From a virus (Duplodnaviria; Heunggongvirae; Uroviricota; Caudoviricetes): a stretch of DNA of 6,214 nucleotides. The stretch is from the IMG/VR virus record IMGVR_UViG_3300014522_000013; one strand, given 5' to 3'. The notes below the pieces were generated by a model. That model was given only the letters and a program-made list of their open reading frames with translations. It made no database searches and was not told the DNA's origin. The position numbers and the translations under genes are program-made. Shown piece by piece: positions 1 through 6,214 of the stretch. Positions within the stretch are counted from its first letter, which is position 1, and each line of letters starts with the position of its first letter.

Positions 1-104
1 GAGTGCGAGGATTGTTATTGTCTTTTCTTCGTGCATTTGTCGCACTTTCGGCACCATCCAGATAGGCACATCCGTCCGCAATTAACACATATAGGCCACA
101 TCAT
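1..104 (-). CDS. Cys-rich small protein, 5' part only (continues beyond the left edge of the window); possible zinc-ribbon protein
   Basis: Hand translation on the minus strand: ATG at 104..102 overlaps the TGA of the upstream gene (103..101) as ATGA. Translation MMWAICVNCGRMCLSGWCRKCDKCTKERQIQSSH... contains C-x2-C-x3-C and C-x2-C-x2-C spacings. GAGGA lies 4 nt upstream. Not in the supplied ORF track; reading frame is still open at position 1. Confidence 0.3.
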
Positions 105-379
105 TTTTCCTCTTTTGGTTTATGAATCTGAATGGTCATGCCACTTTGAGTGGTGACTACAACGACAGAACCAGGCTGAAGACTGTTAAGATTGAATGCT
201 TCGTAAAACGAAGCCAAGGCCAGCGCTTTTTTATTCTTTCGGTTCCACCAACGCCATCCATTGCTACAGGCTACACTGACAATCCACTGTCCACTCCTGT
301 AAGCCATATAAAACCAGATGAGCAAAACCTGAATGAATGCTATCCAGTCAATAATCGTATATTTCGCGAAGGAGACCAT
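101..379 (-). CDS. small hydrophobic (probable membrane) protein, about 92 aa, function unknown
   Basis: Track ORF 101..382 begins at a TTG; the adjacent ATG at 379..377 has AGGAGG 7 nt upstream and overlaps the TGA of the DUF551 gene as TGATG. N-terminal stretch YTIIDWIAFIQVLLIWFYMAY is strongly hydrophobic, followed by a basic patch WRWWNRKNKK. Confidence 0.6.
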   Translation of the reverse strand: MVSFAKYTIIDWIAFIQVLLIWFYMAYRSGQWIVSVACSNGWRWWNRKNKKALALASFYEAFNLNSLQPGSVVVVTTQSGMTIQIHKPKEEK

Positions 380-1194
380 CAATTAACCTCCTGCGGCGGT
401 TCCGGTAGAGGCATCCAGTACAAGGCGTTCCCTAACCACGATAAAGTGCCGTCGCTCAACTCCACGTATTCCCCTTGTACCTGTCCTGCCATATACTCGC
501 CGTGCTTTGAATAAATTAAAATCCAATCATCTTGAGCGGGCATTCGCTCACTACAGCTTATCCAACCATCCGGAGTTACCGGATAGTTGCCAGCCAGTCT
601 ACGCAAAACAGTCTTAACCGCCTCAATACGGTCATCATCGCAACTTTCCAGCGTATCTATGCGATCGAGGATGATGATGGCGTTATCAATATCAGGATTG
701 CCGGTCCACTCATTACCGCGATTGGATTCGGCAGCCTGGTTGCCGCGTACTGGTTGATTCTCGGCTTTACCCTGTCTGTCGTCGCTGCATGAATGCCCTT
801 CCAGCCAGACCAGTGCTTGTCGCATGAAATACGCAATATGCTTGCCGTGGTAATCGTCTTCATCGATGTGAAAAGCGATACTGCGGATATATTCAATTGC
901 GTTTTCAATGGCCTCCGGCGTTACCGGAGTTGGTCCATCGAATTCGGGCATGTCAGGACCTTTTCTGATAGCTTTAGCCAGCTCCAGCGGGTCATCGTAA
1001 AGCCAGTCGCCAGTTTGTGGGTGATTTGCTTCTGCAAGCTGCGCAGCCCATTCAAGACCATCTTTTTGACCTTGGAGATAATCAAGCGGCAACTCTTCAT
1101 GATTACTTGCAGGTTCGGCACCATGAAGCATGGCGTCGCTCCGCTCTATGCCATCCAGCGCGATTCGCAGTGCCTGATAGTCAATCTTGCTCAC
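379..1194 (-). CDS. prophage protein with C-terminal DUF551-like domain (271 aa), GTG start
   Basis: C-terminal segment WISCSERMPAQDDWILIYS...YWMPLPEPP matches the remembered DUF551 signature (W-I-x-V/C-x-E-R-x-P ... W-M-P-L-P-E-P-P) common in enterobacterial prophages. GTG start at 1194 is preceded by AAGGAGG with a 6-nt spacer and overlaps the upstream stop as GTGA. Acidic N-terminal half. Confidence 0.78.
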   Translation of the reverse strand: MSKIDYQALRIALDGIERSDAMLHGAEPASNHEELPLDYLQGQKDGLEWAAQLAEANHPQTGDWLYDDPLELAKAIRKGPDMPEFDGPTPVTPEAIENAIEYIRSIAFHIDEDDYHGKHIAYFMRQALVWLEGHSCSDDRQGKAENQPVRGNQAAESNRGNEWTGNPDIDNAIIILDRIDTLESCDDDRIEAVKTVLRRLAGNYPVTPDGWISCSERMPAQDDWILIYSKHGEYMAGQVQGEYVELSDGTLSWLGNALYWMPLPEPPQEVN

Positions 1195-3916: not shown

Positions 3917-4224
3917 GCAGCTTCTCCAAAAATGTGTCTGCGTTTGAATATTGCGAAGGCATATTCAGCCTTAACTCTTTCGGTTATTGCATCCCAGAAC
4001 CATTCAGCGGCTTTTTCCTGATAGTTACAGTCATCATCTTCCAGCCAGTCGATAGCGTCCTTAGTGTGTTCATCTGGTTTATATGAGCGAAGCATTTCGC
4101 TTATTGGGTCGCAACGTTTGCAGAGACGATCAACTTCACTGTTGATTCGTTCGTAATCTTCATCAGTAAAACTTGCGATTATTTGCGATATTTCACGCTT
4201 ATCATTCAGAGTCAGAATCATCAT
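3913..4224 (-). CDS. hypothetical acidic 103-aa protein translationally coupled to recT; function unknown (possible host-nuclease modulator, by position only)
   Basis: ATG-ATG start at 4224/4221 with AGGAG 4-7 nt upstream; ATGA overlap with recT. Acidic and Trp/Cys-containing (DWLEDDDCNYQEKAAEWFWDAITERVKAEYAFAIF). No similarity to lambda Gam recognised. Confidence 0.72.
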   Translation of the reverse strand: MMILTLNDKREISQIIASFTDEDYERINSEVDRLCKRCDPISEMLRSYKPDEHTKDAIDWLEDDDCNYQEKAAEWFWDAITERVKAEYAFAIFKRRHIFGEAA

Positions 4225-4309
4225 CTTTCTCCTGTTCTTTGTGCTGATTGAGCATTTTGTTCATCTGACGAATGAATTCTTCGTCTGACCAGTTATCTGT
4301 AAAACTCAT
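4202..4309 (-). CDS. candidate 35-aa acidic micro-protein (MSFTDNWSDEEFIRQMNKMLNQHKEQEKDDDSDSE)
   Basis: Hand translation; ATG at 4309..4307 overlaps the TGA of the Kil-like ORF (4308..4306) as ATGA, and its 3' end overlaps the 103-aa gene start by 23 nt. Weak Shine-Dalgarno. Not in the supplied track (below its length threshold). Confidence 0.3.
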   Translation of the reverse strand: MSFTDNWSDEEFIRQMNKMLNQHKEQEKDDDSDSE

Positions 4310-4458
4310 TTCCTGCGATACCACGGAAGGTTGATAGCTGATTTCATCGCTTTATTTGCTTCAAACCACATTTTTGAATCACCAATAAATCTGGCTATTA
4401 CTGCTTTGTTCTGTGCAGCACGAAGCATCTGGTGATTAATGGCTATTTCATTGCGCAT
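4306..4458 (-). CDS. kil: Kil-like small protein (candidate host cell-division inhibitor), 50 aa
   Basis: Hand translation MRNEIAINHQMLRAAQNKAVIARFIGDSKMWFEANKAMKSAINLPWYRRK; GAGG Shine-Dalgarno 7 nt upstream of ATG 4458. Its start overlaps the 3' end of the cIII homologue by 16 nt, as kil overlaps cIII in lambda. The FIGD-x-KM segment recalls lambda Kil, but that recollection is uncertain. Confidence 0.5.
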   Translation of the reverse strand: MRNEIAINHQMLRAAQNKAVIARFIGDSKMWFEANKAMKSAINLPWYRRK

Positions 4459-4574
4459 AATAAGACCTCAACTCTTTTCCATCCGTCACGTAATTTANNN
4501 NNNNNNNNNTCAAGTAAAGATTCATTTAATTGGAAGGCACCCATGCGAGCGCCTCCCGCGATTGCGTAAATCAT
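4443..4574 (-). CDS. cIII: CIII-like protein (FtsH/HflB protease inhibitor that stabilises CII), about 43 aa; four and a half codons are masked by the N-run
   Basis: Hand translation MIYAIAGGARMGAFQLNESLL-[E/D]-xxx-[x]-KLRDGWKRVEVLLCAMK against lambda CIII MQYAIAGWPVAGCPSESLLERITRKLRDGWKRLIDIL.... Readable bases in the two partly masked codons (GAN and NNT) fit Glu and Arg(CGT) of lambda ERITR. AAGGAA Shine-Dalgarno 7 nt upstream of ATG 4574. Missed by the ORF track because of the Ns. Confidence 0.82.
   Translation of the reverse strand: MIYAIAGGARMGAFQLNESLLXXXXXKLRDGWKRVEVLLCAMK
4498..4509. other. 12-nt run of N (masked or unresolved bases) inside the cIII-like coding sequence
   Basis: Literal n characters in the sequence; flanking reading frame is continuous if the run length is correct. 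Confidence 0.95.
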
Positions 4575-4598
4575 GGGTGGTTCCTTATGTTGGTTTTA

Positions 4599-5567
4599 TT
4601 AGTAGGTTATTTTTGTTGCGAATACTTCGCCTTTTACGATGGCTGTTATGATATTTTTAGCAACATCTTCTGGTGCGCCAACCTTGATAAGGTCAGCAAG
4701 TATTTTGTTATTTACTTCTTTCCGGTGAGCTTTATCCTTTGCTCTACGCTCTTCTTCGTCCTTGATTCTTTTTTCTTCTGCTATTCTGGCTTGCTCTTTT
4801 GCTTCAGCCTCGCGCCGGATTCGTTCAGCCTCCTCCTGTGCTTTTCGGCGTTCTGCTTCAATTGCCGCCTGCTTTTCTCTTTCAGCTCGTTCTGCTGCCT
4901 CTTTTGCTTCGCGCTGTGCTCGTTGCTCGGCTTCAATGCGTTCACGCTCTGCACGTTCCGCTGCGGCCTTAGCTTCTGCTTCTCGCCTTGCTGCTGCTTC
5001 AATTTCGGCTTTTGCCTTTGCTTCGGCTTCAGCTCTGGCTTTCTCTTCAGCTTCTCTTTGTAAGCGTTCTTCATGCTCTCGCTTTTCCTGCTCCGCTTTG
5101 AGTCTTGCCTCTTCTCTTTGGCGGTCAAATTCGCGATCCATCAAAATCGCTATTTCATGGTCAGACTCAATTTGCTTTGCGAGAGCTTCAGCTGCTGCCT
5201 TAGCTTCTTCTTCGGCTTTAATCCGCGCCTGTTCTTCCTCATAATCAGTAAGAGGCTGGCGCGCCTTGGCTTTCAGTTCATCAAGGCGATCGCGCACTGT
5301 CTTGCGGTTGGCATCAATTAGCTTTGGAATTTCCTTCAGTTCAGCAACAAGGTCTTTGCCAAGACCATCGAGATATGTTTTCGTCTGCGCAACTTTATAC
5401 GCCAGAGAAGCGATCTCCTTTCTGCCCTTTGCCGTTGTGATATCAGGCACAAAGGACATAACTTCACGTTCAACCTTTTGAAGGATTTCTTCAATCTGGT
5501 CGGCAGACTGAAATACAGTCATTGCATTTGCTTTTTCAATAACAACTAAATCTGTTACTTCACTCAT
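4599..5567 (-). CDS. 322-aa protein: globular N-terminal domain (~105 aa), ~170-aa Glu/Arg/Ala/Lys-rich predicted single alpha-helix or coiled-coil, short C-terminal domain; function unknown
   Basis: Long ORF with GGAGG Shine-Dalgarno 4-5 nt upstream of ATG 5567. Central region is runs such as EAEAKAKAEIEAAARREAEAKAAAERAERERIEAEQRAQREAKEAAERAEREKQAAIEAERRKAQEEAERIRREAEAKEQARIAEEKRIKDEEERRAKDKAHRKE. Stop lies 24 nt upstream of cIII. Confidence 0.85.
   Translation of the reverse strand: MSEVTDLVVIEKANAMTVFQSADQIEEILQKVEREVMSFVPDITTAKGRKEIASLAYKVAQTKTYLDGLGKDLVAELKEIPKLIDANRKTVRDRLDELKAKARQPLTDYEEEQARIKAEEEAKAAAEALAKQIESDHEIAILMDREFDRQREEARLKAEQEKREHEERLQREAEEKARAEAEAKAKAEIEAAARREAEAKAAAERAERERIEAEQRAQREAKEAAERAEREKQAAIEAERRKAQEEAERIRREAEAKEQARIAEEKRIKDEEERRAKDKAHRKEVNNKILADLIKVGAPEDVAKNIITAIVKGEVFATKITY
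4745..5255 (-). repeat. compositionally biased, codon-repetitive DNA (CT/GC-rich on the plus strand) encoding the E/R/A/K-rich segment of the 322-aa protein
   Basis: Plus strand is dominated by gcttc/ctgc/ttct-type units without exact long tandem repeats; it generates several spurious overlapping ORFs in other frames (4530..5063 +, 4762..5244 +, 4781..5128 -). Confidence 0.6.
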
Positions 5568-5600
5568 ATATCCTCCATCAAAAAATCGCCCTCACATTGG

Positions 5601-5678
5601 NNNNNNNNNNNNNNNNNNNNNNNNNNNNNNNNNNNNNNNNNNNNNNNNNNNNNNNNNNNNNNNNNNNNNNNNNNNNNN
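5601..5678. other. 78-nt run of N (masked or unresolved bases) between the AT-rich orphan gene and the 322-aa gene
   Basis: Literal n characters; content cannot be read. Followed on the minus strand by ccaatgtgagggcgaTTTTTTga and then the Shine-Dalgarno of the 322-aa gene. Confidence 0.95.
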
Positions 5679-5706
5679 TGGAATGAATACACAGTGCTTA
5701 TTCGTA

Positions 5707-6177
5707 CTAATAAAACACCCAATTTTCTGTTTCTTGGTTGTGTCCAAAGTTATATTCAATATCTGGTGTTGATGTATCAATATTCTTCATCCCATCAACA
5801 AGAGTTGATACAACAGCTAAATCTTGTTTGATTCGCATCAAATGGTATTTCTTCCGGCGCAATAAACTTTCAATGGCAAGTTTCTTCGTTGGGAATGCAA
5901 AAGATCTTTCTGCATTTTTTGCTACTTTCTTAATTGCATATCTATTTCTCCTTTGTTTCCATTCCTGTAACCACTGATTTGGTGCTGGTTTAAAATTAAC
6001 AATCCAATGCGCAGGAACCAACCATGCATAATGCTCTGTCTGATGAAAAGCTATATATTGAAGTGCGAATATTTTGATCCCATCTTCTTCAACTGTCGCT
6101 TGGAATCTCCAGAAAACAGGCATTCCATCATGTTCAGTTTCTGATTCAGGAAAAGGTACGCTCCATGATTTTGTCAT
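5707..6177 (-). CDS. 156-aa orphan protein encoded in an AT-rich segment; function unknown (candidate accessory/moron gene)
   Basis: ATG at 6177 with GAGGTGA Shine-Dalgarno about 5 nt upstream. By eye the segment 5680..6214 is roughly 30-38% GC against roughly 45-60% for the rest. No family recognised (MTKSWSVPFPESETEHDGMPVFWRF...RRKKYHLMRIKQDL...). Confidence 0.75.
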   Translation of the reverse strand: MTKSWSVPFPESETEHDGMPVFWRFQATVEEDGIKIFALQYIAFHQTEHYAWLVPAHWIVNFKPAPNQWLQEWKQRRNRYAIKKVAKNAERSFAFPTKKLAIESLLRRKKYHLMRIKQDLAVVSTLVDGMKNIDTSTPDIEYNFGHNQETENWVFY

Positions 6178-6214
6178 ATCTCACCTCAAATAATTCAGTG
6201 CAGTGTTTATTCTG

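What the first reader, a model, noticed from the sequence alone, without database searches (positions are those of the whole stretch)
4443..4574. cIII homologue hidden by a masked N-run and absent from the ORF track
Reading the minus strand by hand gives a 43-codon ORF with a good Shine-Dalgarno whose product aligns with lambda CIII across the conserved helix (ESLLE....KLRDGWKR). Even the readable bases of the two partly masked codons are consistent with lambda's Glu and Arg. This anchors the whole window as the early-left operon of a lambdoid phage and fixes the transcription direction.
Basis: partly seen in the sequence, partly recalled or inferred. Interest (0 to 1): 0.55.

Follow-up and report, generated by a model that had tools for sequence, protein, structure and literature searches.

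The report
Known phage cIII gene, partly masked
The 43-codon minus-strand ORF is an ordinary, already annotated copy of the lambdoid-phage cIII gene, whose small product inhibits the host FtsH protease and favours lysogeny; the masked 12 bases almost certainly read ACGAATCACCCG, giving Glu-Arg-Ile-Thr-Arg.

Summary
Window 4443-4574 (-) is a 43-codon ATG ORF with an AAGGAA Shine-Dalgarno ending 6 nt before the ATG. It contains an in-frame 12-base N-run (4498-4509).

Even with the masked residues as X, it passes Pfam Lambda_CIII (38.4 bits, cut-off 25.7). The next ORF (4306-4458, -) is Kil and overlaps it by 16 nt.

An E. coli prophage (strain E1) matches the window over 4.4 kb with only five real mismatches. 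There the masked bases read ACGAATCACCCG, as they do in Sf6, lambda, HK629 and phiSTEC801. This gives MIYAIAGGARMGAFQLNESLLERITRKLRDGWKRVEVLLCAMK.

That exact protein is RefSeq WP_000638547.1, 'protease FtsH-inhibitory lysogeny factor CIII'. It is identical to Sf6 gp32 and seen on at least 1000 contigs.

It keeps 18 of 24 residues of lambda's essential region and all five residues whose alanine substitution kills lambda CIII. dN/dS against P22-type and Erwinia homologues is 0.11-0.15.

The E1 context (cII, cro, cI, N-like gene, terminator, cIII, kil, RecT) confirms an early-left operon transcribed on the minus strand.

The C-terminal tail differs from lambda's because of a mosaic junction. Nothing here is new, and interest is low.

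The parts
4443..4574 (-). cIII coding sequence, 43 codons plus TAG. Product: MIYAIAGGARMGAFQLNESLL[ERITR]KLRDGWKRVEVLLCAMK, bracketed residues inferred.
   Evidence: ORF; Pfam PF02061, 38.4 bits; BLASTP against lambda CIII, E 1e-13; identical to WP_000638547.1 and Sf6 gp32 outside the mask; dN/dS 0.11-0.15.
4498..4509 (.). Masked N-run of 12 bases: the last base of codon 22, codons 23-25, and the first two bases of codon 26. Inferred minus-strand sequence ACGAATCACCCG.
   Evidence: coordinates; same 12 nt in E. coli E1, Sf6, lambda, HK629, phiSTEC801; surrounding 48-nt patch matched at 100% by the listed E. coli hits.
4581..4586 (-). Shine-Dalgarno AAGGAA at -12..-7 from the ATG.
   Evidence: same UAAGGA at the same spacing as in lambda.
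4458..4529 (-). Codons 16-39, the equivalent of lambda CIII residues 14-37 (the essential and sufficient amphipathic helix region). 18 of 24 residues identical.
   Evidence: identity; hydrophobic moment 0.78, reached by 6 of 2000 shuffles; S19, R26, L28, R29, R34 match lambda S17, R24, L26, R27, R32; PMC1838920.
4476..4523 (-). 48-nt patch, codons 18-33 (ESLLERITRKLRDGWK), identical at nucleotide level to lambda cIII. Only the 36 unmasked bases are read directly from the window. Flanks are diverged, so this is a mosaic homology patch.
4525..4592 (-). Translation-initiation region able to form two competing mRNA folds. Closed: SD and CACCCAUG pair with codons 10-14 (CAUGGGUG..CCUU), -22.2 kcal/mol. 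Open: a hairpin inside the coding region with the ribosome-binding site free, -20.6 kcal/mol.
   Evidence: constrained folds; z = -3.0; MFE is closed, centroid is open. The analogy with lambda's published alternative structures is an inference.
4306..4458 (-). kil, 50 codons. Its ATG lies inside the 3' end of cIII, with a 16-nt overlap.
   Evidence: Pfam Lambda_Kil, 68.8 bits; PHROG 2055, 121 bits; annotated kil in E1.
4599..5567 (-). Upstream gene of the same transcription unit: a 322-aa Lys/Ala/Glu-rich coiled-coil protein, labelled 'TolA' or Sf6 gene 33 in records. Function unknown. It ends 24 nt before the cIII ATG.
   Evidence: PHROG 1376; no Pfam hit.
5576..5607 (-). Intrinsic-terminator-like hairpin plus T-run upstream of the 322-aa gene. 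Its 5' arm (5601-5607) lies under the second N-run. It corresponds to the site annotated tL2A in Sf6.
   Evidence: L001 4094-4115 plus tail; Sf6 annotation; 96.7% identity to the lambda ea10-ral intergenic region.

Best explanation
This is the cIII gene of a P22-like/lambdoid (Sf6, HK620, mEp043-type) prophage or phage of E. coli/Shigella. It lies in the N-dependent early-left (pL) operon and is transcribed on the window's minus strand.

Its 43-aa product is a small peptide whose central amphipathic helix (residues about 16-39) binds the membrane protease FtsH (HflB). It acts as a competitive inhibitor and is itself an alternative substrate. This transiently protects the phage activator CII (and host sigma-32) from degradation and so pushes the lysis-lysogeny decision towards lysogeny.

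Expression is probably limited in two ways. Transcription must read through an upstream tL2a-like terminator, which requires N antitermination. Translation initiation probably depends on an equilibrium between a closed mRNA fold that sequesters the SD and AUG and an open fold, as described for lambda cIII.

Shown here: the ORF, family membership, identity to annotated CIII proteins, purifying selection, synteny, helix amphipathicity, and the two near-isoenergetic folds.

Inferred from lambda: FtsH inhibition, CII stabilisation, N dependence, and control by mRNA structure or RNase III.
For: - **Family.** Pfam Lambda_CIII 38.4 bits against a 25.7 cut-off with masked residues as X. PHROG 550 74 bits. 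BLASTP against lambda CIII E 1e-13.
- **Identity.** The E. coli E1 prophage has 5 real mismatches in 4432 nt around the gene and reads ACGAATCACCCG under the mask. The same 12 nt occur in Sf6, lambda, HK629 and phiSTEC801. The exact 43-aa protein is named 'protease FtsH-inhibitory lysogeny factor CIII' and is seen on at least 1000 contigs. tblastn finds it at 100% identity in listed phage genomes including mEp213, mEp043, HK544, mEp234 and Sf101; 30 phage records match at 99% or more.
- **Selection.** dN/dS is 0.11-0.15 against P22, S149, epsilon34 and Erwinia phage cIII.
- **Essential residues.** All five lambda residues whose Ala substitution abolishes function are present, one of them inferred. 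The essential 24-aa region is 18/24 identical, and the hydrophobic moment of 0.78 is reached by 6 of 2000 shuffles (PMC1838920).
- **Synteny.** kil overlaps the 3' end. In E1, cI, an N-like gene and a terminator lie upstream and CII is present.
- **mRNA.** The closed fold is -22.2 and the open fold -20.6 kcal/mol, with z = -3.0.
Against: - The 12 masked bases were not read from the source itself, because the exact source was not found.
- The C-terminal nine residues (VEVLLCAMK) differ from lambda's, including the last residues of lambda's 14-37 essential region (LIDIL becomes VEVLL). No experiment on this short-tailed variant was found.
- NCBIfam has no HMM hit, and no solved structure exists for the family.
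- The mRNA switch is supported only by thermodynamic prediction. The pairing register differs between homologues, so no true covariation test was possible.
Confidence: 0.94

Rival explanations
1. It is a decayed or functionally weakened cIII remnant. A mosaic junction just after GWKR replaced the C-terminal part, shortening the protein from 54 to 43 aa and altering the end of the essential helix, so the peptide no longer inhibits FtsH effectively.
For: The tail VEVLLCAMK differs from LIDILNQPGVP... in lambda, P22, S149, epsilon34 and the Erwinia phage. 6 of the 24 essential-region positions differ, 4 of them at its C-terminal end. The tail sequence overlaps the kil start, so kil may be what constrains it.
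Against: - The exact 43-aa sequence is maintained on at least 1000 contigs and in functional, plaque-forming temperate phages such as Sf6, mEp043, mEp213 and HK544.
- All five mutationally defined essential residues are retained.
- Hydrophobic character at the helix end is kept (V, V, L, L).
- In lambda the residues beyond 37 are dispensable (PMC1838920).
Confidence: 0.05
2. In this particular source, the masked 12 bases carry a stop codon or another disabling change, so the gene is a pseudogene here.
For: The bases cannot be read, and the source record was not recovered.
Against: - The mask length (12) equals the length in relatives, and the alignment across it is ungapped.
- Real divergence from E1 is 5 in 4420 readable nt, so about 0.014 changes are expected in 12 nt.
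- The 12 nt lie inside a 48-nt patch that the listed E. coli hits match at 100%; 1359 of 1716 matching records are at 99% identity or more.
Confidence: 0.01
3. The true product starts at the internal ATG (codon 11). That codon is preceded by GGGAGG at about 7 nt and would give a 33-aa peptide still containing the whole active helix. The upstream 10 codons would then be leader rather than coding sequence.
For: GGGAGGCGCTCGCATG in the window. P22 and S149 also have Met at position 11.
Against: - The N-terminal motif M-x-x-A-I-A-G is conserved at protein level in all nine homologues, including lambda and the Erwinia phage, which lack Met11. Kobiler et al. also note it.
- The SD-like GGGAGG is not conserved: GGGAAG in P22 and GGGCGG in S149.
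- The conserved CAUGGG is better explained as the pairing partner of the start region in the closed fold.
Confidence: 0.03

Closest known systems
Shigella phage Sf6 gene 32 / E. coli prophage CIII WP_000638547.1 (also in mEp043, mEp213, HK544, mEp234, Sf101)
   Same: Identical 43-aa protein, assuming the masked residues are ERITR. It has the same flanking genes: the 322-aa coiled-coil gene upstream and an overlapping kil downstream. DNA identity is 97.5-100%.
   Different: Nothing detectable in the gene itself. Downstream recombination modules differ: the window has RecT/Gp157, Sf6 has Erf/SSB.
Bacteriophage lambda CIII (54 aa, NP_040620.1), Pfam PF02061
   Same: The N-terminal M-x-Y-A-I-A-G motif, and ESLLERITRKLRDGWKR identical at both protein level and nucleotide level (48 nt). 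Also the same SD and spacing, the same position directly upstream of and overlapping kil in the pL operon, and an amphipathic helix.
   Different: The window protein has a 2-residue insertion before the helix and a different segment at residues 8-16. After GWKR its tail is VEVLLCAMK (43 aa in total) instead of LIDILNQPGVPKNGSNTYGYPD. The cIII-kil overlap is 16 nt here and 32 nt in lambda. Function has been tested only for lambda.
Salmonella phage P22 C3 (52 aa)
   Same: Same 16-residue N-terminal architecture (MI-AIAG-ARMG--QL-ESLL), about 72% identity over 39 residues, and a comparable predicted hairpin and start-region complementarity.
   Different: P22 has the lambda-like ...ILNQPGVP tail. 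DNA identity is only 79% over 117 nt.
Bacillus SpoVM (a small amphipathic-helix FtsH inhibitor and substrate)
   Same: The mode of action proposed in the literature: a short amphipathic helix that inhibits FtsH and is degraded by it (PMC1838920).
   Different: No detectable sequence relationship was tested or claimed here. It has a different host and biological role. The comparison is an analogy only.

Membership tests
Lambda CIII family (Pfam PF02061 / PHROG 550) | Sequence match to the family profile above the curated threshold | tested here: met
   Pfam 38.4 bits against a gathering score of 25.7, E 1.3e-9, with the 5 masked residues as X. PHROG 550 74 bits, E 1.6e-20, for the reconstructed protein. 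NCBIfam has no HMM hit, which is neutral.
Lambda CIII family (Pfam PF02061 / PHROG 550) | Conserved central amphipathic helix (lambda residues 14-37), including residues S17, R24, L26, R27 and R32 required for activity | tested here: met
   18/24 identical. S19, L28, R29 and R34 are read directly. R26 lies under the mask (NNT; CGT in all relatives). Hydrophobic moment 0.78, reached by 6 of 2000 shuffles (PMC1838920).
Lambda CIII family (Pfam PF02061 / PHROG 550) | Small peptide (about 40-60 aa) with the conserved N-terminal M-x-x-A-I-A-G motif | tested here: met
   43 aa starting MIYAIAGG, aligned with 8 homologues.
Lambda CIII family (Pfam PF02061 / PHROG 550) | Location in the pL (early-left) operon, downstream of N and directly upstream of kil | tested here: met
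   kil overlaps the 3' end. In the near-identical E1 prophage, cI, an N-like gene (PHROG 271, 128 bits) and a terminator lie upstream on the same strand. N and pL are outside the window.
Lambda CIII family (Pfam PF02061 / PHROG 550) | Partner protein CII encoded by the same phage | tested here: met
   CII (PF05269, 144.5 bits) is present in the E1 prophage that shares this segment. It is not in the window, so for the window's own phage this is an inference.
Lambda CIII family (Pfam PF02061 / PHROG 550) | Inhibition of FtsH/HflB and stabilisation of CII and sigma-32 | not testable with these tools
   This is a biochemical or genetic property, known for lambda CIII (PMC1838920).
Lambda cIII-type translational control (alternative mRNA structures, RNase III stimulated) | Two mutually exclusive folds of about -13..+40, one occluding the SD and AUG | tested here: inconclusive
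   Closed -22.2 and open -20.6 kcal/mol; z = -3.0; MFE is closed and centroid is open. Start-region complementarity to codons 10-12 is also seen in P22, S149 and the Erwinia phage, but in different registers. There is no covariation statistic, and RNase III involvement cannot be tested.

The most novel reading that the evidence does not exclude
The 48-nt helix-coding patch (window 4476-4523) is nucleotide-identical between otherwise diverged cIII alleles (lambda type and Sf6 type) and is matched at 100% by the listed E. coli prophage hits. Homologues from Salmonella and Erwinia phages encode nearly the same peptide with many synonymous differences.

The evidence does not exclude that, in E. 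coli phages, this patch is also constrained at the nucleic-acid level. It could be an RNA-processing or regulatory site, or a preferred recombination 'boundary sequence' that shuffles N-terminal/leader modules against kil-linked C-terminal modules. The chimeric cIII of phiSTEC801 suggests the latter.

Separately, the short-tailed 43-aa variant might differ from lambda CIII in stability or potency.
Probability: 0.1. Interest if true: 0.35.

Novelty: already known. Interest (0 to 1): 0.08.

Why it matters
The practical value is for annotation. The gene orients the window: minus strand, early-left operon of a temperate lambdoid or P22-like phage. It identifies the element as temperate with a CII/CIII-type lysogeny module. 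It also shows that the N-run hides nothing unusual.

The case illustrates two pitfalls. Short genes are lost by ORF length cut-offs rather than by masking. Masking can also create spurious ORFs on the opposite strand: the 70-aa plus-strand ORF across the N-run is interrupted by a stop in the unmasked relative.

There is no new biology.

Tried and rejected
- **NCBIfam:** scanning CIII, Kil and neighbouring proteins gave no hits. The RefSeq name must come from another rule.
- **Rfam:** a scan at E up to 1 of the window and of the unmasked E1 locus gave no RNA family.
- **Source record:** an exact 50-mer from the window's mosaic junction (around position 1169) found 0 matches in genome contigs and 0 in viral contigs, so the source was not recovered. 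No complete E. coli genome or phage record covers the whole window. The best are E1, with 80% of the window at 99.6%, and MS1657, with 88% at 96.6%.
- **Solved structures:** the sequence search found no relative; the only hit was spurious at E 0.93.
- **Antisense ORFs:** the 45-aa and 177-aa plus-strand ORFs have no Pfam or PHROG hits. The 70-aa plus-strand ORF contains a stop once the mask is filled in.
- **Literature:** Kornitzer et al. 1991 (PNAS) is not held in the library. I cite it only through Kobiler et al. 2007.
- **Chance ORF:** rejected on family scores, synteny and dN/dS.

Full report
**1. The observation**

On the minus strand, 4574 to 4443, there is an ATG-initiated ORF of 43 codons ending in TAG. 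AAGGAA lies at -12..-7 from the ATG. Lambda cIII has the same UAAGGA at the same spacing.

The N-run is 4498-4509, exactly 12 bases, so it preserves the frame. It covers the last base of codon 22 (GAN), codons 23-25, and the first two bases of codon 26 (NNT).

The ORF listing does report the ORF with X residues when min_aa is lowered to 30. The mask therefore does not hide it. A 43-aa ORF is simply below the usual 60-aa reporting threshold.

**2. Is it more than chance?**

ORF length alone is not evidence, since the window has 73 ORFs of 30 aa or more. The content is.

- With the five affected residues as X, the protein scores 38.4 bits (E 1.3e-9) against Pfam Lambda_CIII, whose gathering score is 25.7.
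- The reconstructed protein aligns to lambda CIII with 24/35 identities, E 1e-13.
- It scores 74 bits on PHROG 550.
- Against P22, S149, epsilon34 and an Erwinia phage, dS is saturated (1.2-3.8) while dN is 0.15-0.42. This gives dN/dS of 0.11-0.15, so the frame is under purifying selection as a protein.
- Plus-strand ORFs across the same region have no family support. The 70-aa one, 4439..4651, exists only because of the mask: the unmasked relative has a TGA there (this caused the errors).

**3. The masked bases**

The exact source was not found in the species-representative genomes or in IMG/VR.

The E. coli strain E1 prophage (NZ_CP104503) aligns without gaps across 4432 nt with 17 mismatches. 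Twelve of these are the Ns, so only 5 are real differences. E1 reads ACGAATCACCCG under the mask, which gives Glu-Arg-Ile-Thr-Arg.

Sf6, lambda, HK629 and phiSTEC801 have the same 12 nt. A 76-nt query centred on the mask has matches in 1703 of 5426 complete E. coli genomes, and 1359 of 1716 matching records are at 99% identity or more. The listed partial hits cover only the central 48 nt, at 100% identity, and every listed hit is annotated as CIII.

With about 0.1% local divergence, the expected number of changes in 12 nt is about 0.014. Arg) is correct, and the refutation condition (a stop or frameshift) is very unlikely.

**4. What it is**

The full protein is MIYAIAGGARMGAFQLNESLLERITRKLRDGWKRVEVLLCAMK.

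- It is in the public collection on at least 1000 contigs as 'protease FtsH-inhibitory lysogeny factor CIII' (WP_000638547.1).
- It is identical to Sf6 gene 32.
- tblastn finds it at 100% identity in listed phage genomes including mEp043, mEp213, HK544, mEp234 and Sf101; 30 phage records match at 99% or more.

The next ORF, 4306..4458 (-), is Kil (Pfam 68.8 bits, PHROG 121 bits) and starts 16 nt before the cIII stop. Further downstream on the same strand lie a RecT recombinase, Gp157, DUF5405, DUF2737, an ead/Ea22-like region, DUF551 and DUF4752.

Upstream in E1 are cII and cro (divergent), then a LexA-type cI, an N-like antiterminator (PHROG 271), two small ORFs, the 156-aa ORF, a terminator, and the 322-aa coiled-coil gene. 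All but cII and cro read in the cIII direction. This is the early-left operon of a P22-like/lambdoid temperate phage. The best overall phage matches are podoviruses of the Sf6, HK620 and vB_EcoP-683R2 kind.

**5. How it most likely works**

From the literature on lambda (Kobiler et al. 2007, PMC1838920):

- It forms oligomeric amphipathic helices.
- It competitively prevents binding of CII, and it also stabilises sigma-32.
- Residues 14-37 are essential and sufficient.
- S17A, R24A, L26A, R27A and R32A are null mutations.

The window protein keeps 18 of 24 residues of that region and all five of those residues (S19, R26, L28, R29, R34). R26 is the one inferred from relatives. The 18-residue window 19-36 has a helical hydrophobic moment of 0.78, reached by 6 of 2000 shuffles. 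I therefore infer the same mechanism: transient inhibition of FtsH, a rise in CII and a bias towards lysogeny. The activity itself was not testable here.

Expression control is also inferred.

- **Transcription.** A hairpin plus T-run precedes the 322-aa gene (E1 locus 4094-4115, which is window 5586-5607). It corresponds to the site annotated tL2A in Sf6. It lies in a 121-nt patch 96.7% identical to the lambda ea10-ral intergenic region. cIII should therefore need N antitermination, like lambda's delayed-early genes.
- **Translation.** The -18..+50 RNA has an MFE fold of -22.2 kcal/mol, in which AAGG and CACCCAUG pair with CAUGGGUG..CCUU of codons 10-14. With the ribosome-binding site forced open it forms a coding-region hairpin of -20.6 kcal/mol. 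The z-score is -3.0, the MFE has an ensemble frequency of 0.26, and the centroid is the open hairpin. This resembles the alternative-structure control reported for lambda cIII (Altuvia et al. 1989, as cited in PMC6524683). P22, S149 and the Erwinia phage also show start-region complementarity to codons 10-12, but in shifted registers. I could not run a proper covariation test, so this remains a plausible unproven feature.

**6. How it differs from lambda**

The window protein has a two-residue insertion and a diverged segment at residues 8-16. It also has a different, shorter C-terminus after GWKR: VEVLLCAMK instead of LIDILNQPGVPKNGSNTYGYPD.

At DNA level only 48 nt (4476-4523) match lambda, at 100%, with diverged flanks. 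phiSTEC801 combines the window-type N-terminal part with the lambda tail. The helix-coding patch is therefore a mosaic crossover point, and the CIII tail travels with the kil module that overlaps it.

The last residues of lambda's essential region change from LIDIL to VEVLL. Hydrophobicity is largely retained, but this variant has not, to my knowledge, been tested. That leaves a small probability of weakened function.

**7. Verdict**

Both the observation and the interpretation are right. The feature is a well-known, routinely annotated gene, so novelty is 'already known' and interest is low.

The only mildly interesting residue is the nucleotide-invariant 48-nt patch. Both N-runs in the window fall inside the window's only two long patches of near-identity to lambda (one search also lists a 19-nt match at 6196-6214).

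Noticed in passing
window 5601-5678: A second N-run of 78 bases lies in the intergenic region between the 156-aa ORF (5707-6177, -) and the 322-aa coiled-coil ORF. The E1 relative has 81 nt there, so there is a 3-nt length difference. It hides the 5' arm of a tL2a-like intrinsic terminator (window 5586-5607 plus T-run) and part of a hairpin just upstream.
   Followed up: partly
window 4476-4523 and 5580-5697: These are the only two long patches of the window with near-identity to phage lambda: 48 nt at 100% in cIII, and 121 nt at 96.7% in the ea10-ral/tL2a region. One search also lists a 19-nt match at 6196-6214. Both N-runs fall inside these two patches. The masking may therefore be tied to similarity with a reference sequence rather than being random. 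The reason is unknown.
   Followed up: partly
window 4439-4651 (+): The 70-aa plus-strand ORF listed across the N-run is an artefact of masking. With the bases from the E1 relative it contains a TGA stop.
   Followed up: yes
L008 (phiSTEC801-Stx1a) 401-571, compared with window 4443-4574: A chimeric cIII has the window/Sf6-type N-terminal half (MIYAIAGGARMGAFQLN) joined to the lambda-type C-terminal tail. This shows recombination within the invariant 48-nt helix-coding patch.
   Followed up: partly
window 4529-4559 (-), codons 6-15: An in-frame internal ATG (codon 11) is preceded by GGGAGG at SD-like spacing. The same CAUGGG is complementary to the CCCAUG of the true start and forms the closed mRNA fold. 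Met11 is shared with P22 and S149 but not with lambda or the Erwinia phage.
   Followed up: partly
window 4599-5567 (-): This 322-aa protein has a long Lys/Ala/Glu/Arg-rich coiled-coil middle. Records label it variously 'TolA', 'cell envelope biogenesis protein' or 'coiled-coil domain-containing protein'. It has no Pfam or NCBIfam hit and matches PHROG 1376, of unknown function. It is conserved directly upstream of cIII in Sf6 (gene 33) and in an Erwinia phage.
   Followed up: no
window 4202-4324 (-): A 40-aa ORF between kil and the 103-aa ORF matches only the N-terminal 20-32 residues of PHROG 17766 and PHROG 2123 (the latter labelled 'recombinase'; PHROG 17766 is of unknown function). It is not annotated in E1, so it is probably a remnant left at a mosaic junction.
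   Followed up: no
database labels for window 4443-4574: PHROG 550 and many RefSeq phage records call this protein 'CIII anti-termination'. That is a misnomer, because CIII is an FtsH protease inhibitor, not an antiterminator.
   Followed up: yes
window 1-1168: The promoter-distal end of the window (DUF551 and DUF4752 genes) no longer matches the E1 prophage, which otherwise matches at 99.6%. Other E. coli prophages (MS1657, VTB96929v) cover it at about 96.6%. This is typical ead/Ea22-region mosaicism.
   Followed up: no
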